14,206 nucleotides of DNA from Gemmatimonadota bacterium. GTDB taxonomy: Bacteria > Gemmatimonadota > Gemmatimonadetes > Gemmatimonadales > GWC2-71-9. The DNA lies in assembly GCA_036679605.1 (NCBI GenBank), contig JAZDCZ010000268.1:1-14206 (forward strand), in the 5' to 3' direction. The notes beneath the pieces were generated by a model. That model was given only the letters and a program-made list of their open reading frames with translations. It was not told where the DNA came from and did no database searches. The position numbers were made by a program, and so were the translations under genes. This document shows positions 1,605 to 11,055 of the stretch, piece after piece (position 1 is the stretch's first letter; the number at the start of each line of letters is the position of its first letter).

Positions 1605-2294
1605 CTACAGGGCCTCTCGCAGCCTCTTAATTTCCTCCTTGGCCCAGTCGGCAACCGGATCTTGCGGAAACCGATCCACCAGCCGAGCTAGTTCGGGTAT
1701 CGCCTTCTGCGGAACGTCTAGCTTGCCGGTGTAGATCTCGATGATCTCTTGAGTGATGAGAAGCTCGCGTCCCTTGTCGACCTGGGCATCCGAACGCGCG
1801 CGTTTGAACCAGAACAACGCGTCCTCGTGTTTTTCGAGTTTATCGCGGTACAGCCGAGCGATCCTAACGTACGGTTCGGGATCGTCAGGGAAGTCGGCAC
1901 AGCAAAGCTGGTACGCTGTGACGGCCTCCTCGTAGTGTCCTCTTGCGACCAACGATTCGGGGTAAGAGTACTCTCGCTTAGGTGGCGTTGATTTGCCTGA
2001 AGGGTGGTAGATCGTTCCAGCCACAGCCCCGGCGCCTTCGGAGAAGAGATTCGTCATTGTGAAAGTGAACAAGAAACAGAATAAGAAGGCAAGAACCCCG
2101 ATTGCCGGATTCCATATTTGGGCCCCGAAATTACCTGCGACGGCTCCGATAGCTAGCGACCAACCCACCATCTTGATGGTACGGGCGCGCTTGGCGAGGT
2201 CAACGTCCTTGTCATGCTCGTGCTTCTCGTAGGTCCGCTTGGGTGGCGGCACTCGAGGCTTGGATAGCGGCTTCGGAGCTTCGTCTGGCGTCAT
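1605..2294 (-). CDS. Membrane-anchored TPR-repeat protein (two TM helices plus C-terminal TPRs)
   Basis: Hydrophobic segments MVGWSLAIGAVAGNFG and IGVLAFLFCFLFTFTM are followed by TPR-like helices (GHYEEAVTAYQ, EPYVRIARLY, KHEDALFWFKRA, PQKAIPELARLVDRFP). ATG 2294 is preferred over 2438, whose extension would fill nearly the whole divergent intergenic region with gltA. The start is uncertain. Confidence 0.7.
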   Translation of the reverse strand: MTPDEAPKPLSKPRVPPPKRTYEKHEHDKDVDLAKRARTIKMVGWSLAIGAVAGNFGAQIWNPAIGVLAFLFCFLFTFTMTNLFSEGAGAVAGTIYHPSGKSTPPKREYSYPESLVARGHYEEAVTAYQLCCADFPDDPEPYVRIARLYRDKLEKHEDALFWFKRARSDAQVDKGRELLITQEIIEIYTGKLDVPQKAIPELARLVDRFPQDPVADWAKEEIKRLREAL

Positions 2295-2454
2295 AGCGGC
2301 ACGACCGAATTTCGAGAAGATGAAAACTACGCCCCGGGTCGTAGCGCGGTAAGAGCCTTGCCGAACCGGACGGCCGCGGCCGATCACGCCTGACGCCTTG
2401 CCGATCCCCTGAGTATCTTTAGGCCCGCTTACGAACAATCAGATTGAGGAAACA

Positions 2455-3741
2455 GTGTCTAAAGATTCACTCGCGATAACGGACAACCGGACCGGTAAGA
2501 GCTACGAACTCCCGATCGAGGATGGGACGATTCGGGCTTTGGATCTCCGACAGATCAAGACGGACGACAACGACTTTGGGCTCATGACCTACGATCCCGG
2601 TTTTACCAACACGGCGTCTTGCAAGAGCAAGATCACATATATCGACGGCGAGAAGGGAATCCTACGGTATCGCGGCTACCCCATAGAACAACTCGCAGAG
2701 CGCGGTACTTTTCTGGGAGTCGCCTACCTGTTGTTGCACGGGGAGTTGCCGATGACTGCGCAGCTCGCCGATTGGACCCACGACATCACGCATCACACGT
2801 TCCTACACGAGAACGTAAAGAAATTCATGGACGGGTTCCGCTACGACGGACACCCGATGGGAGTATTCGTCAGCACGGTGGCTGCACTGTCCACCTTCTA
2901 TAAGGACGCGAAACGAATTAGAGAGGAAGACTGTCGCCGCCACCAACTACACCGGCTGATCGCGAAGACACCCACCATAGCCGCGTTTGCATACCGGCAC
3001 ATCACGGGACTGCCGTACGTGTACCCGGACAACGATCTCTCCTATACGGGCAACTTCTTGAGCATGATGTTCAAGACGAGCGAGGCGAAGTACGAGCCCA
3101 ACCCCGTGTTAGAGCGAGCGCTCGATGTGTTGTTCATCCTCCACGCCGATCACGAGCAGAACTGCTCGGCGAGTGTGATGCGCAGCGTGGGGTCGAGCGA
3201 GGCGGACCCATACTCATGCATGGCCGGGGCCGCAGCGGCACTGTACGGGCCGCTCCACGGCGGCGCCAACGAACAGGTACTTCGTATGCTGGGGGAGATC
3301 GGGAGCACAAAGAACATTCCCGCCTACCTGAAGAAGGTACGGAACAAGGAAGTGAGACTGATGGGCTTCGGCCATCGGGTATATAAGAACTACGATCCGC
3401 GGGCCAAGATCATCAAGCAGGTAGCCGACGAGGTATTCGAGGTAACGGGCCGCAACCCGCTCATCGACATAGCTCTCGAGTTGGAGCGCATCGCGTTGGA
3501 AGACGAATACTTCGTCTCACACAAGCTCTACCCCAACGTCGACTTCTATTCAGGGATCATCTATCAGGCAATGGGACTGCCGGTGGACATGTATCCGGTC
3601 CTGTTCGCGATCGGTAGGACGCCGGGCTGGCTCGCCCAGTGGGAAGAGATGCTGCAGGACAAGGAGCAGCGCATCGCGCGTCCGCGTCAGATCTATCTGG
3701 GAAGTGGCGAACGGGACTTCGTGGCATTGACCGATCGGTGA
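2455..3741 (+). CDS. gltA: Citrate synthase
   Basis: 428 aa with YDPGF, ITYIDG-GILRYRGY, LHADHEQN, GPLHGGANE, LMGFGHRVYKNYDPRA and YPNVDFYSG motifs. GAGGA precedes the GTG start. Confidence 0.97.
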   Translation: MSKDSLAITDNRTGKSYELPIEDGTIRALDLRQIKTDDNDFGLMTYDPGFTNTASCKSKITYIDGEKGILRYRGYPIEQLAERGTFLGVAYLLLHGELPMTAQLADWTHDITHHTFLHENVKKFMDGFRYDGHPMGVFVSTVAALSTFYKDAKRIREEDCRRHQLHRLIAKTPTIAAFAYRHITGLPYVYPDNDLSYTGNFLSMMFKTSEAKYEPNPVLERALDVLFILHADHEQNCSASVMRSVGSSEADPYSCMAGAAAALYGPLHGGANEQVLRMLGEIGSTKNIPAYLKKVRNKEVRLMGFGHRVYKNYDPRAKIIKQVADEVFEVTGRNPLIDIALELERIALEDEYFVSHKLYPNVDFYSGIIYQAMGLPVDMYPVLFAIGRTPGWLAQWEEMLQDKEQRIARPRQIYLGSGERDFVALTDR

Positions 3742-7105: not shown

Positions 7106-7399
7106 CTACAGAACCTTCCAAGCCGAGTCTCGACGCTCGGTCAGCCCGCGTCGTTCCGCAAGGCGGCGGGTCGTGCCACGACGATCATCTACTCTGCGAA
7201 CAACCGCTTCGCGGCGATCATCCATCACCCGATGGTCGTTCGCCACAGCACTCGACGCCATCCTACGATCCTGTATTCGGCGAACAACTGCGTAGCGGCG
7301 ATCGTCGGTCCGGCGGTCGTCCCGTTGTCGTCGGGGGCTAAAACGGCGACCATCATTGGATTTGGAGCCTCTACCTGCTCCGCCTATTTCCTGTTCCAT
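7106..7399 (-). CDS. Small arginine-rich protein with tandem [D/E]RR repeats (97 aa)
   Basis: MEQEIGG...DGRRFSPRRQRDDRRTDDRRYAVVRRIQDRR...DDRREAVVRRVDDRRGTTRRLAERRGLTERRDSAWKVL. ATG 7399 has GAAGGGG upstream and a promoter-like element at 7452-7479, which favours it over the 7558 start in the ORF track. Confidence 0.6.
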   Translation of the reverse strand: MEQEIGGAGRGSKSNDGRRFSPRRQRDDRRTDDRRYAVVRRIQDRRMASSAVANDHRVMDDRREAVVRRVDDRRGTTRRLAERRGLTERRDSAWKVL

Positions 7400-7451
7400 A
7401 ACAAGTGCCCCTTCAAACATGAAGACTTGAGAGCGCTGATGCTCGGGCAAC

Positions 7452-7479
7452 AAGCTAAAGCCCATTAGAAATATGGCAA
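7452..7479 (-). promoter_or_regulatory. Putative sigma70-type promoter for the DRR-repeat gene
   Basis: TTGCCA-N16-TAGCTT on the minus strand. It has the same -35 hexamer and spacing as the candidate promoter of the DAHP synthase leader. Confidence 0.45.
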
Positions 7480-7554
7480 GGGTCGTACCGTGCGCGGGGA
7501 GTTGTTCGGGGATAATTGCGGTCAAGGAGATCGACTGTCTCGACTGCGGGTGGA

Positions 7555-7845
7555 TCAACCTCCGGTGAGGCGCTTCACATCCTTCGCGCCGTGCAAAACA
7601 CCGGCGCCGATACCAACGCCGATCCCAAGTCCAAAAAAGACAGCTGACAGACCACCTATTAGGGGCAAGAGGCTCACCACAGGAATCGTGAGCAACCCCA
7701 CTGCCCCTCCAGCTACTAGCGGTGCCATAGGATTGTTTACTGCGTCTACAAACCGCAGTCGGCGTCTAACGAACTGCCGAGTTTTGATATAGCCATAGAT
7801 TGCAGCGGCGCCCGTCAGACCCATCCAGGCAATCAATCCGAACAT
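7555..7845 (-). CDS. Small Gly-rich membrane protein, hypothetical (96 aa, ~3 hydrophobic segments)
   Basis: Strong GAGGAGG RBS. N-terminal TM, basic RQFVRRRLRFVDAV linker, then two Gly-rich hydrophobic helices. Confidence 0.8.
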   Translation of the reverse strand: MFGLIAWMGLTGAAAIYGYIKTRQFVRRRLRFVDAVNNPMAPLVAGGAVGLLTIPVVSLLPLIGGLSAVFFGLGIGVGIGAGVLHGAKDVKRLTGG

Positions 7846-7896: not shown

Positions 7897-8766
7897 CTAC
7901 TTGGAATCGATATCCAGTGCTACGTCTGCCGACCTGACACTATGTGTTAGAGCCCCTACCGACACAAAATCCGCCCCAGCAACTGCGTAATTCCGTACAT
8001 CCTCCAGTACGATGCCTCCGGTAGCCTCGACTTCGATGTCCGAATTCAAGCCTCGGGCGATCTCACACCAATGCGATAGAGTAGCAGGAGTTTGATTGTC
8101 CACAAGGAGCCGAGTAGCTCCTGCCGATACCGCCAATTCGACCTGATCGGTTGTCTCTACTTCAATGTAGATAGACGTTACTCCGCGGCCCCGTGCGCGT
8201 CCGACGAATTCGCTCAGATCCCTGCCCCGCGCAGCCAACGCACTCCAATGATTGTCTTTGAAGAGTATCTGACTTCCGAGATCCACACGATGCAGCGACC
8301 CTCCGCCCGAAAGCACGGCACTCACATCGAGCCTGCGGAGCCCCGGCGCAGTTTTTCGCGTGTGAAGGATACGACATGTGGTACCTGCGACGGCGTTCAC
8401 GAAACTTCGGGTCATCGTCGCCACGCCACACGCGCGCTGCAGCAGATTGAGCAATGGACGTTCGGCGCGCAGCATCCGAGCGAGATCACCGTGCATCGTT
8501 CCGATGGTCGCACCCGACGGCACCACCGATCCGTCTTTCATCTTCCACTCTATCGGGTCACAATCACAGACGTGCGCTACGGCGTCGGCGTATGGCAGTC
8601 CTGCCACCACACCACCGCTTCGAAATACGAGCAGGCCCCTAGCAACCAAGCCCTGGGCCTGCGCAAGCTCACTGGTGATATCTGTGGGACCGTCTTCAGC
8701 GACGGCACGTTGTGCTACAACCCTTGCATCCTTCGCGATGTCCGGCAGCTCAGGGGAAGACGTCAT
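7897..8766 (-). CDS. nadC: Nicotinate-nucleotide pyrophosphorylase (quinolinate phosphoribosyltransferase)
   Basis: AER-LLNLLQ, TRKTAPGLR, HR-DL, KDNH, IEVE, LVDN, EATGGI and SVGALTHS motifs. Adjacent to nadA (13-nt gap). Confidence 0.95.
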   Translation of the reverse strand: MTSSPELPDIAKDARVVAQRAVAEDGPTDITSELAQAQGLVARGLLVFRSGGVVAGLPYADAVAHVCDCDPIEWKMKDGSVVPSGATIGTMHGDLARMLRAERPLLNLLQRACGVATMTRSFVNAVAGTTCRILHTRKTAPGLRRLDVSAVLSGGGSLHRVDLGSQILFKDNHWSALAARGRDLSEFVGRARGRGVTSIYIEVETTDQVELAVSAGATRLLVDNQTPATLSHWCEIARGLNSDIEVEATGGIVLEDVRNYAVAGADFVSVGALTHSVRSADVALDIDSK

Positions 8767-8779
8767 GGCCGAGATCGCC

Positions 8780-9766
8780 TTAGACGATAGCCACCATTCG
8801 GTCGAGAGCGGCTCGCGCGCGGTTGGCCACAGGGGAAGGAACCGTTATGCAGTGCCGGTCGTAGAGCAGCGAGTCTCTGACATGTTCCAGCGTGATCGTT
8901 TTCATGAACGCACATATAGCCTCAGGATCCGCGGCCAGGAAAGTCTTGTCTGGAGCCACTTGCTGCATCCTGTGCAGCACACCCACCTCGGTCGCCACTA
9001 TATAGGTCGAGGTCTTGCCGCATCGTGCCTGACGAACCATTCCTTCGGTCGAGACTATGTGGACTCCCGTTGCATCGACATCGCCCATGTCCATGCTGTA
9101 GATCAATTGCCCGGCGCAACCACACTCTGGATGAACGAGGACTTGCGCCTCCGGGTGCTCTCTCCTGCGAGCATTGACTGTCCGGGCATTGATGTTCTTG
9201 TGGACATGGCATTCGCCCATCCAGACCTCGACCTCCCGCTCCGGCCGCATGTGGCGGATGTGCGCACCGAGGAAGAAGTCGGGCAGGAAGAGAATGCCCC
9301 GGTCGTCCGGGATTGCGTCGATCACGGCCAATACGTTTCCACTGGTGCAGCAGTAGTCCAGCTCGGCTTTCACGTCCGCCGTGGTGTTGACGTAGCCCAC
9401 CGTTACGTGATCGGGGAACTCCGTCTTCCAGCGCCTAACATCCTCTGCCGTTATGGTATCTGCCAACGAGCAGCCCGCACGGAGGTCGGGTAATAGGACA
9501 CGCTTCTCGGGTGATAGAATGGCTGCGGTTTCGGCCATGAAATGGACGCCACAGAACACGATGACCGGAGCGTCGGTCTCGGCTGCCTGGCGCGACAGCC
9601 CCAACGAATCACCCACGAAATCGGCCACGTCCTGGACTTCGGGACGCTGGTAATTGTGAGCTAACACCACGGCGTCTCGTTCAGCCGTTAGCGTCCTGAT
9701 CTCGGAATGCAATACCAGAATCTCTTCCGGACTCAGGTCGGTTTCTTCTACCAGGGCTAACGTCAT
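8780..9766 (-). CDS. nadA: Quinolinate synthase NadA ([4Fe-4S])
   Basis: LAHNYQ-PEVQDVADFVGDSL, FCGVHFMAE, the three cluster Cys in GCSLA, GECHVH and AICAFMK, plus YVNT and VHPEC. ATG 9766 (GGAG upstream) is preferred over 9814. Confidence 0.96.
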   Translation of the reverse strand: MTLALVEETDLSPEEILVLHSEIRTLTAERDAVVLAHNYQRPEVQDVADFVGDSLGLSRQAAETDAPVIVFCGVHFMAETAAILSPEKRVLLPDLRAGCSLADTITAEDVRRWKTEFPDHVTVGYVNTTADVKAELDYCCTSGNVLAVIDAIPDDRGILFLPDFFLGAHIRHMRPEREVEVWMGECHVHKNINARTVNARRREHPEAQVLVHPECGCAGQLIYSMDMGDVDATGVHIVSTEGMVRQARCGKTSTYIVATEVGVLHRMQQVAPDKTFLAADPEAICAFMKTITLEHVRDSLLYDRHCITVPSPVANRARAALDRMVAIV

Positions 9767-9791
9767 CTGACCGTAAATCTCCACAAGAATG

Positions 9792-9822
9792 AGGGGGACG
9801 GAAGATACTCCCATCCTGCCCT
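9792..9822 (-). other. Intergenic RNA hairpin between the DAHP synthase gene and nadA
   Basis: Minus strand AGGG-CA-GGATGGGAG-TAT-CTTCCGTCC-CCCT: a 9-bp stem with two G-U pairs plus a 4-bp extension, followed by only a weak U-tract (CATTCTT). Confidence 0.4.
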
Positions 9823-9841
9823 TCCGGTCTACTGGTAGAAC

Positions 9842-10849
9842 CTACACCACAATCGCCTCGCGGACGACCGTGACCGCCGCCATCAACTGCTCGAACATCG
9901 TGAAATCTAAGCTCTGATCCCCGTCGCTCCGAGCCCGGTCCGGATCCGGATGGACCTCTATCATCAGACCGTCGGCACCCGCCGAGACGGCCGCGAGGGC
10001 AAGGGGTCGAACCAGATCGCGCCGTCCGGCTGCGTGAGAGGGATCTACGATCACCGGCAAGTGGGTCTCCCGCTTCAGATAGGGCACGGCGCCGATGTCC
10101 AACGTGTTGCGCATGGCGGTCTCGAACGTGCGGATTCCCCGCTCGCAGAGGATTACCTCTGAGTTTCCATGGCTCATCACGTACTCTGCCGCCAGCAAGA
10201 AATCTTCCAGTCGGGCCGACATGCCTCTCTTGAGCAGCACCGGTTTGCCGGCCTCTCCTACTTCAGTGAGCAGTGCAAAGTTCTGCATGTTGCGGGCGCC
10301 GATCTGGAGCACGTCGGCGTAGCGGACAACGTCCGCGACCTGCCTGGTATCCATTACCTCGGTCACTATCGGAAGCCCGGTAGCGTCACGGGCCTCGGCC
10401 AGGAGCTGGAGGCCCTCCAGCCCCATGCCCTGGAACGAATAGGGCGAGGACCGTGGCTTGAAGGCTCCCCCGCGCAACGCGACCGCGCCGGCCGCTCGCA
10501 CCGCGCGTGCCGTGTCGAGCAGCATCTCCTTCCCCTCCACCGAACACGGTCCCGCAATGACTGCGAACTGACCGTTGCCCACGCTGCCAGTACCCAGCGG
10601 GATGATCGTGGGCCCCGCGGCGAATGCGCGGCTCGCCAGCTTGTACGGCTTCTCGACGGGTAGTACGGTTTCCACACCCGCGAGTGAGAGCACCGCAAAC
10701 TCTCGCAGCCGATTCTCGTCGCCGATGCATCCCACTATCGTATGGGTCTCACCGCGCGAAACGTGGGGCTTTAGACCTGCCTCCTCGATTCGCGCGAGCA
10801 GGTTGTCGAGATCCTGTTCGCTAGCATCGGACCGCATGACAATGACCAT
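9842..10849 (-). CDS. aroF: 3-deoxy-7-phosphoheptulonate (DAHP) synthase, type I-beta with N-terminal ferredoxin-like/ACT regulatory domain
   Basis: N-terminal MVIVM...HVSRG-THTIVGCIGD domain, then IAGPCSVE, GGAFKPRSSPYSFQG, QIGARNMQNF, LKRG, LCERGIRTFE, RNTLD, IVDPSH, IEVHP and SDG-QSL. ATG 10849 has GGAGG 8 nt upstream. Confidence 0.95.
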   Translation of the reverse strand: MVIVMRSDASEQDLDNLLARIEEAGLKPHVSRGETHTIVGCIGDENRLREFAVLSLAGVETVLPVEKPYKLASRAFAAGPTIIPLGTGSVGNGQFAVIAGPCSVEGKEMLLDTARAVRAAGAVALRGGAFKPRSSPYSFQGMGLEGLQLLAEARDATGLPIVTEVMDTRQVADVVRYADVLQIGARNMQNFALLTEVGEAGKPVLLKRGMSARLEDFLLAAEYVMSHGNSEVILCERGIRTFETAMRNTLDIGAVPYLKRETHLPVIVDPSHAAGRRDLVRPLALAAVSAGADGLMIEVHPDPDRARSDGDQSLDFTMFEQLMAAVTVVREAIVV

Positions 10850-10864
10850 CTCAGATACCTCCAC

Positions 10865-10892
10865 AAAAAAAGGCCCCGCTCGTTGCGGGGCC
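10865..10892 (-). terminator. Intrinsic terminator (attenuator 3:4 hairpin) directly before the aroF RBS
   Basis: GGCCCCGC-AACGA-GCGGGGCC-TTTTTTT on the minus strand: a perfect 8-bp GC stem and 7 U, ending 2 nt before the GGAGG of aroF. Confidence 0.92.
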
Positions 10893-10925
10893 GTCGGTAG
10901 TTGAACGCTGCTGGGTTGTTCGTGT

Positions 10926-11018
10926 TTAGTCGATCACGAGCGCGCGCACGCCTGCCGGAGGCCCCGAGTTGCCGGGCCAATACCAGTAATAGCGGGAATA
11001 AGTGGGTGCGTGTTTCAT
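10926..11018 (-). CDS. Tyr/Trp-rich attenuation leader peptide (30 aa) for the DAHP synthase gene
   Basis: Too short for the ORF track. ATG AAA CAC GCA CCC ACT TAT TCC CGC TAT TAC TGG TAT TGG CCC...GAC TAA = MKHAPTYSRYYWYWPGNSGPPAGVRALVID. Four Tyr and two Trp fall within 8 codons, upstream of an intrinsic terminator and an aromatic-pathway gene. Confidence 0.85.
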   Translation of the reverse strand: MKHAPTYSRYYWYWPGNSGPPAGVRALVID

Positions 11019-11027
11019 CGTAAGGGG

Positions 11028-11055
11028 AATGTAGTCCAGGACCCGGTGATGGCAA
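11028..11055 (-). promoter_or_regulatory. Putative sigma70 promoter of the leader-aroF transcript
   Basis: TTGCCA-N16-TACATT, with the -10 ending 9 nt before the leader ATG. There is no SD in between, implying a leaderless or near-leaderless leader ORF. Confidence 0.55.

What the first reader, a model, noticed from the sequence alone, without database searches (positions are those of the whole stretch)
10858..11055. Complete, unannotated Tyr/Trp-sensing transcription attenuator controlling DAHP synthase
Seen in sequence (minus strand): a promoter-like TTGCCA-N16-TACATT; the leader ORF MKHAPTYSRYYWYWPG... (10926-11018); segment 1 GGCCCGG (10972-10978, overlapping the last Trp codon), which can pair with segment 2 CGGGGCC (10960-10966); segment 2 extended, CGGGGCCTCCGGCAG (10952-10966), which pairs with CTACCGACGGCCCCG (10886-10900) at 12/15 positions and sequesters the terminator's 5' arm; and a perfect terminator with U7 just before the aroF RBS. 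Established knowledge: this is the 1:2 / 2:3 / 3:4 logic of E. coli trpL and pheL attenuators. Inference: ribosome stalling on Tyr or Trp codons allows read-through. Classical attenuators control the terminal branches (trp, pheA), whereas this mixed Tyr+Trp sensor sits on the first committed step of the shikimate pathway, in a lineage where I know of no such description.
Basis: partly seen in the sequence, partly recalled or inferred. Interest (0 to 1): 0.85.

Follow-up and report, generated by a model that had tools for sequence, protein, structure and literature searches.

The report
Tyr/Trp attenuator matching lost Phe synthesis
A 30-codon mini-gene rich in tyrosine and tryptophan codons, followed by a stop-signal hairpin and a competing helix, sits before the first enzyme of aromatic amino-acid synthesis and likely works as a textbook ribosome-sensing switch; its lack of phenylalanine codons matches a genome in which no phenylalanine-making enzyme was found.

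Summary
The feature is real. Promoter-like site, leader MKHAPTYSRYYWYWPG…, antiterminator and terminator+U7 lie where stated, before a type Iβ DAHP synthase. The architecture recurs before aroF across the phylum (inferred Gemmatimonadota): 98 of 160 and 42 of 58 loci in two non-random samples, 0 of 18 in the housekeeping paralog clade. The leader appears leaderless (no SD; 9 nt after the −10). Leader codons match the downstream operon: Trp before trp genes, Phe before prephenate dehydratase (PDT), Tyr before prephenate dehydrogenase, mixed when aroF stands alone. This genome has tyrA and trpA but no PDT, and its leader has no Phe. Of 20 PDT-less genomes, 17 had Phe-free leaders, versus 12 of 59 with PDT. 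A held-out set agreed (p=0.007), but tree-independent pairs gave only p≈0.06. Attenuation at aroF is not new: C. glutamicum aroR and Acholeplasma uORFC-13-1 are published. This scan also noted the family in other Gemmatimonadota. Function is untested, and no RNA data were listed. Verdict: new variant of a known kind.

The parts
11050..11055 (-). -35-like hexamer TTGCCA
   Evidence: a TTG-N16-19-[TC]ANNNT site lies within 3-25 nt of a leader start in 97 of 138 leaders, against 3 of 138 aroF starts and 7 of 1600 internal ATGs
11028..11033 (-). -10-like hexamer TACATT, 9 nt before the leader ATG; inferred start site about 11021-11018, so leaderless or nearly so
   Evidence: 92 of 97 sites lie 4-11 nt before the start codon, mode 6-7; start site inferred, not measured
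10926..11018 (-). Leader ORF, 30 codons, no Shine-Dalgarno sequence
   Evidence: orthologue G001 keeps YSRYYWYWPG with synonymous changes
10977..11000 (-). Control codons Tyr7, Tyr10, Tyr11, Trp12, Tyr13, Trp14; no Phe codon anywhere in the leader
   Evidence: the last Trp codon starts 14 nt before segment 2 in 10 of 15 close orthologues with a correctly read frame, 12-15 nt in 13 of 15
11006..11010 (-). 5' strand (CGCAC) of a possible outer helix enclosing the control codons
   Evidence: 73% of cells paired in alignment A1; predicted probability 0.2-0.8 depending on transcript length; uncertain
10972..10978 (-). Segment 1, pairs with segment 2 (1:2 hairpin, -10.7 kcal/mol)
   Evidence: the family-register hairpin is 85% paired in A1 but not above shuffles
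10952..10966 (-). Segment 2, 5' strand of the antiterminator
   Evidence: duplex -22.5 kcal/mol
10945..10949 (-). 3' strand (GTGCG) of the possible outer helix; conserved motif in relatives
10886..10900 (-). Segment 3, pairs with segment 2 or, in its 3' part, with segment 4
10865..10892 (-). Intrinsic terminator: 8 G-C pairs, 5-nt loop (-19.6 kcal/mol), U7
10858..10862 (-). Shine-Dalgarno sequence of aroF, outside the terminator hairpin
9842..10849 (-). aroF, type I-beta DAHP synthase with ferredoxin-like regulatory domain; a second, regulated copy (a 50%-identical paralog on contig C346 has no leader)
9802..9831 (-). Promoter-like TAGAC-N19-TATCTT before nadA, also present in G001; suggests nadA-nadC need not depend on the attenuator
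   Evidence: consensus resemblance in two genomes only

Best explanation
This is likely a classical ribosome-mediated transcription attenuator that would switch on a second DAHP synthase copy when charged tRNA-Tyr or tRNA-Trp runs short. A sigma70-type promoter would start the RNA at or within about 3 nt of the leader AUG (leaderless translation, inferred). A ribosome stalled at Tyr11, Trp12, Tyr13 or Trp14 covers segment 1 but leaves segment 2 free. Segment 2 then pairs with segment 3 before segment 4 is made, and RNA polymerase reads into aroF. A ribosome that passes codon 15-16 covers segment 2, so the 3:4 hairpin and U7 end transcription near 10865. The leader likely lacks Phe codons because the organism appears unable to make Phe (no prephenate dehydratase found), so only the two end products it can make are sensed. 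Shown: anatomy, conservation, codon-operon match, gene presence and absence. Inferred: start site, translation, stalling, termination, and the reason Phe is missing.
For: Leader + terminator in 15 of 18 loci of the window's own aroF clade by script (a 16th by eye), 0 of 18 in the housekeeping clade. Phylum-wide 98 of 160 and 42 of 58 further loci. Codons follow the operon: trp-linked 11 of 11 called, W 33 of 41 aromatic residues; PDT-linked 21 of 21, F 84 of 121; PDH-linked 14 of 16, Y 58 of 73; stand-alone F70/Y99/W41. Antiterminator: own leader pairs with its own terminator arm better than the median other-genus arm in 83 of 96, and beats 95% of shuffles in 55 of 96; its 5' strand starts a median 12 nt after the last aromatic codon. 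Nascent-RNA folding with a 13-nt footprint: antiterminator P about 0.99 with the ribosome at codon 14 or earlier, 0.57 at 15, 0.01 at 16. Promoter position conserved and SD absent. G000 has trpA and PDH but no PF00800, PF00497 or PF00351 match. Phe-free leader versus no PDT: discovery set 9/4/1/26, p=2e-5; held-out set declared beforehand 8/8/2/21, p=0.007.
Against: No expression, termination or ribosome data exist for this locus. Formal covariation on the 16-row MAFFT alignment is weak: antiterminator 19/500 and 10/500 on two measures but 285/500 for two-sided pairs; 1:2 plus outer helix 371/500; terminator 149/500; RNAalifold gave only -3.2 kcal/mol and not the expected helices. At full-length equilibrium the terminator wins (P 0.9-1.0) even with the ribosome at codons 11-14, so read-through needs kinetic ordering; without a ribosome the antiterminator is also predicted (0.98). 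The Phe/PDT link has exceptions: 12 Phe-free leaders in genomes with PDT and 3 Phe leaders in genomes without. On the tree only 8 independent pairs exist (4.7 same way, 0.1 opposite, median p=0.0625). Absences come from assemblies 82-99% complete (G000 96.5% complete, 6.3% contaminated).
Confidence: 0.85

Rival explanations
1. It is an attenuator, but it effectively senses only one of the two amino acids (Trp, or Tyr); the other codons are passengers.
For: The last Trp codon is the positionally conserved one (14 nt before segment 2 in 10 of 15 close orthologues). Tyr7 and Tyr10 lie too far upstream to cover segment 1. In C. glutamicum the Phe-Tyr-Phe leader responds to Phe but not Tyr limitation (passage of PMC11802643).
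Against: Tyr11 and Tyr13 lie in the effective window. Near-pure Tyr leaders precede tyrA operons and near-pure Trp leaders precede trp operons, so both codon types appear functional in this family.
Confidence: 0.25
2. The attenuator is real, but the absence of Phe codons is drift or shared ancestry, unrelated to loss of prephenate dehydratase.
For: 12 of 29 Phe-free leaders are in genomes with PDT; genus g192 shows all but one state combination; independent-pair test p=0.0625; missing genes in assemblies can be artefacts.
Against: 17 of 20 PDT-less genomes have Phe-free leaders against 12 of 59; the held-out test agreed; pairs almost never go the opposite way (0.1 of 8); near-complete genomes G032 (5 contigs), G101 (1), G561 (8) and G595 (1) fit; genus g183 shows the contrast internally.
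Confidence: 0.35
3. The peptide itself acts, either as a nascent arrest peptide sensing free amino acid (TnaC-like) or in trans (peTrpL-like), rather than the codons sensing charged tRNA.
For: Trans-acting roles are reported for the S. meliloti trp leader (search listing and abstract start of PMC7968998).
Against: Outside the aromatic cluster the peptides share little sequence; what is conserved there is RNA complementarity and spacing. The control residue changes with the downstream pathway.
Confidence: 0.06
4. The attenuator also puts NAD synthesis (nadA-nadC, directly downstream) under Tyr/Trp control.
For: aroF-nadA-nadC are adjacent on one strand in G000 and G001, with no terminator noted between them.
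Against: No nadA hit lay within the DNA held downstream of aroF in the family's other close orthologues, and nadA lies elsewhere in G032, G101 and G067. A promoter-like site is conserved before nadA in both genomes. No full kynurenine route was found (TDO present; kynureninase below cut-off; 3-HAO search uninformative).
Confidence: 0.12
5. Chance arrangement: a constitutive terminator with an accidental short ORF.
For: GC-rich DNA pairs easily; whole-region folding z = -0.41.
Against: Conservation across at least five family-level groups, codon-operon match, fixed promoter spacing, absence before housekeeping paralogs.
Confidence: 0.02

Closest known systems
Corynebacterium glutamicum aroR-aroF attenuator (Neshat et al. 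2014 not held; seen only as summarised in passages of PMC11802643 and PMC4046766)
   Same: Aromatic-codon leader peptide with attenuation upstream of a DAHP synthase, the first step of the shikimate pathway
   Different: aroR has Phe-Tyr-Phe and reportedly responds to Phe, not Tyr. This leader has 4 Tyr + 2 Trp and no Phe, in another phylum. No sequence comparison with aroR was made.
Acholeplasma uORFC-13-1 motif upstream of aroF (passage of PMC8632094)
   Same: Predicted uORF plus intrinsic terminator before aroF, proposed ribosome-speed attenuation, untested
   Different: Phe codons and an RBS there; Tyr/Trp codons and no SD here; different phylum
E. coli trpL-trpE and pheL-pheA attenuators (established knowledge; passages of PMC11802643)
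   Same: 1:2 / 2:3 / 3:4 logic; control codons placed just upstream of the antiterminator strand; U-tract terminator
   Different: Single amino acid, terminal branch, SD-led leader; no Rfam family matched this region above chance
Multivalent attenuators thrL (Thr+Ile) and ilvL (Leu/Ile/Val) (recalled, no call)
   Same: One leader senses several end products of a branched pathway at its shared first step
   Different: Different pathway; I know of no report that their codon set tracks gene loss

Membership tests
Classical leader-peptide transcription attenuator | Short upstream ORF with clustered codons for the pathway's end products | tested here: met
Classical leader-peptide transcription attenuator | Intrinsic terminator between leader and first gene | tested here: met
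   present in 98 of 160 related loci with a leader
Classical leader-peptide transcription attenuator | Antiterminator mutually exclusive with the terminator, its 5' strand just beyond a ribosome stalled on the control codons | tested here: met
   formal covariation only modest
Classical leader-peptide transcription attenuator | 1:2 pause / anti-antiterminator hairpin | tested here: inconclusive
   conserved pairing potential, not above shuffles; predicted P 0.79 early, 0.34 once segment 3 appears
Classical leader-peptide transcription attenuator | Promoter upstream of the leader | tested here: met
   positional conservation in 97 of 138 against 3 of 138 controls; consensus-level evidence only
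Classical leader-peptide transcription attenuator | Leader is translated | not testable with these tools
   no SD; leaderless initiation inferred
Classical leader-peptide transcription attenuator | Read-through rises when the matching charged tRNA is limiting | not testable with these tools
   needs reporter or Term-seq experiments
Rfam leader families (Trp, Phe, His etc.), T-box, riboswitches | Match to the covariance model above gathering score | tested here: not met
   only two chance-level hits (15.5 and 14.1 bits against cut-offs 47 and 95.9)
aroR (C. glutamicum) / uORFC-13-1 (Acholeplasma) families | Phe-containing leader, homologous RNA | tested here: not met
   no Phe codon here; RNA homology itself was not tested

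The most novel reading that the evidence does not exclude
Across Gemmatimonadota one leaderless attenuator scaffold is repeatedly retuned by point changes in a handful of codons. It senses Trp, Phe or Tyr when aroF heads the matching branch operon, all three when aroF stands alone, and drops Phe when the genome loses prephenate dehydratase. The leader's codons would thus be a readable record of what an uncultured organism can and cannot synthesise, and the Tyr+Trp leader here marks a phenylalanine auxotroph.
Probability: 0.55. Interest if true: 0.65.

Novelty: new variant of a known kind. Interest (0 to 1): 0.5.

Why it matters
The mechanism is textbook and attenuation at aroF has precedents, so the element alone is a modest addition: an uncatalogued RNA family in a little-studied phylum. 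The comparative pattern is the more valuable part. It gives a natural series in which sensor specificity follows operon content and, probably, gene loss. That makes regulator-pathway co-evolution testable with a few codon swaps, offers an independent check on auxotrophy predictions for uncultured genomes, and provides a case of attenuation driven from an apparently leaderless mRNA.

Tried and rejected
Rfam scan: no real match. Whole-region folding: not unusually stable. RNAalifold on A1: no useful consensus; four rows are out of register by about 2 columns in the 3' half. A general ribosome-position scan over 138 leaders showed the arm sequestered at median 0.85 (first aromatic codon) and 0.43-0.46 (3 or more codons past the cluster), but the baseline is high and masking lowers pairing by itself, so I give it little weight. 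Division of labour as the reason for Phe-free leaders in genomes with PDT: a separate Phe-containing leader before the PDT gene was seen in 2 clear plus 2 plausible of 12 such genomes, and in 4 clear plus 1 weak of 27 controls, so not supported as a general rule. NAD coupling through the kynurenine pathway: not supported. Literature searches without a hit for this element: zero papers; only the precedents cited. The library omits most subscription journals; Neshat 2014 was not held, and I did not look up Vitreschak 2004 or Panina 2001 (seen only as reference entries), which may describe further aroF attenuators. Supplements were not read. Two script calls (L166, L203) looked spurious and were dropped; the G101 leader was called by eye; named loci L031-L110 were left out of all counts.

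Full report
Observation. The gene behind it is a type I-beta DAHP synthase with a ferredoxin-like domain, followed by nadA and nadC. The window is contig C188 of G000. The best named aroF relatives that carry the same architecture are labelled Gemmatimonadota, so I infer that phylum. In a genome-wide scan of 540 short ORF + terminator combinations this is the richest aromatic cluster by my reading of the list. Rfam has no matching family.

Conservation. I collected aroF loci from three relative searches and applied one fixed rule: a terminator 8-130 nt before the start, and a 10-40-codon ORF with at least 3 aromatic residues in 10 ending near it. Of 162 loci, 160 had enough upstream DNA and 98 were called. 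A further family sample gave 42 of 58. These are best-scoring hits, not a random sample. On the aroF tree the window's clade has 15 of 18 called (G101 a 16th by eye; G086 and G091 none), and the housekeeping clade has 0 of 18. G000's own 50%-identical paralog directly follows another coding region. Some groups have none, for example genus g119 (0 of 8) and family f10 (0 of 5).

Codons follow the operon. Before aroF-trpE operons 11 of 11 loci have leaders, with 33 Trp among 41 aromatic residues; these aroF genes form a single clade, so this is one event. Before prephenate dehydratase, 21 of 21, with 84 Phe of 121. Before prephenate dehydrogenase, 14 of 16, with 58 Tyr of 73 (one exception, G353, is Phe-rich). 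Stand-alone aroF, 40 of 95, is mixed (F70, Y99, W41). This is what sensing of charged tRNA predicts and a chance ORF does not.

RNA switch. In 15 close orthologues with a correctly read frame the last Trp codon begins 12-15 nt before segment 2 in 13 (exactly 14 in 10; 20 in two). Across 96 leaders the antiterminator strand starts a median 12 nt after the last aromatic codon; the own pairing beats the median foreign terminator arm in 83 of 96 and 95% of shuffles in 55 of 96 (window: shuffle rank 0.04, foreign-arm rank 0.37). Folding the nascent RNA with a 13-nt footprint gives antiterminator probability 0.99 up to codon 14, 0.57 at 15 and 0.01 at 16. Tyr11 to Trp14 cover segment 1 and spare segment 2; Tyr7 and Tyr10 do not cover segment 1. 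Against this: full-length equilibrium favours the terminator with the ribosome at codons 11-14, the model also forms 2:3 without a ribosome, and column-based covariation on the MAFFT alignment is modest for 2:3 (19/500, 10/500, 285/500) and absent for 1:2 and 3:4. RNAalifold found no useful consensus.

Leaderless start. Earlier scan notes suggested leaderless translation, so I tested it. A promoter-like pair lies within 3-25 nt of a leader start in 97 of 138 leaders, 92 of them at 4-11 nt, against 3 of 138 aroF starts and 7 of 1600 internal ATGs. Leaders lack SD pairing (median -2.4 against -6.25 kcal/mol; window -0.1 against -12.6). The start site itself is inferred.

Why Tyr and Trp but not Phe. 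G000 has trp genes and prephenate dehydrogenase but no match to prephenate dehydratase, to the SBP_bac_3 family, which I recall includes cyclohexadienyl dehydratase, or to aromatic amino-acid hydroxylase. In 40 genomes with stand-alone leaders: Phe-free/no PDT 9, Phe-free/PDT 4, Phe/no PDT 1, Phe/PDT 26; trpA was found in 40 of 40 and PDH in 37 of 40. I wrote down a prediction for 39 further genomes of one family and found 8, 8, 2 and 21 (p=0.007; 0.04 after collapsing genera). Overall 17 of 20 PDT-less genomes have Phe-free clusters against 12 of 59. Phe was counted in the best 10-residue window; G590 has one Phe outside it. On a tree of these 79 proteins only 8 independent pairs exist; they go the same way in 4.7, the opposite way in 0.1, median p=0.0625. 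One PDT-less genome, G101, has an SBP_bac_3 protein of untested function. The link is suggestive, not established. Putative Phe auxotrophy has been reported for one Gemmatimonadota order (passage of PMC10469786).

Downstream nad genes. aroF-nadA-nadC adjacency was seen only in G000 and G001, and a promoter-like site before nadA is conserved in both. I do not count nadA-nadC as regulated targets.

Comparison with what is known. Attenuation at DAHP synthase is described for C. glutamicum aroR (passages of PMC11802643 and PMC4046766; the primary paper was not held) and proposed for Acholeplasma (passage of PMC8632094); a Shewanella screen lists aroF with a literature note on Tyr-tRNA sensing (passage of PMC2659441). 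Searches for Gemmatimonadota attenuators found no paper, within a library that lacks most subscription journals. This scan has noted aroF attenuators before in cyanobacteria and in 13 other Gemmatimonadota findings; those are unchecked notes, not support.

Verdict. It works like, and by every feature testable here belongs to, the classical leader-peptide attenuators (confidence 0.85); it is not a member of any Rfam family. New aspects: the phylum, probable leaderless initiation, and a codon set that follows operon content and probably loss of Phe synthesis. Interest 0.5.

Noticed in passing
G000 contig C413, minus strand near 756; contig C371, plus strand near 1542: A His-run leader (MRNTTQTHRHHHHHHPLHGG...) with terminator before a hisG-like ORF, and a Leu-containing leader with terminator before a leuA-like ORF (gene names from my reading of the translations). 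Both contigs are small and the assembly is 6.3% contaminated.
   Followed up: partly
G000 contig C343, plus strand near 96302: Trp-rich short ORF (MAKWWTMWVTW...) and a hairpin with U-tract before an ORF that looks NusG-like to me (recalled resemblance, not searched).
   Followed up: no
window 7897-9814 (-): nadA-nadC with no nadB match over the cut-off in the genome; the nadA start is probably near 9766 rather than 9814; tryptophan dioxygenase is present on C212.
   Followed up: partly
L319 (G143), L330 (G599), L338 (G587), L339 (G191), L348 (G509), L358 (G487): Phe-rich leaders with terminators directly before prephenate dehydratase genes or a PDT-DAHP synthase fusion: the same device on the Phe branch.
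   Followed up: partly
G387:C1 near 4546600 and G532:C276 near 1610-3369: Prephenate dehydratase lies next to the leader-bearing aroF on the opposite strand (divergent in G387, convergent in G532).
   Followed up: no
L099, L108, L076: Aromatic-rich uORF plus terminator before aroF in records labelled Phycisphaerales, Oscillospiraceae and Peptoniphilaceae, outside this phylum.
   Followed up: no
window 7106-7558 (-): ORF with many repeats of an RR-x-DRR / ERR motif.
   Followed up: no
L179-L187, L192 (genus g119) and genus g120 loci: aroF of the leader-bearing clade without a detectable leader or terminator, suggesting loss of the attenuator in these genera.
   Followed up: no
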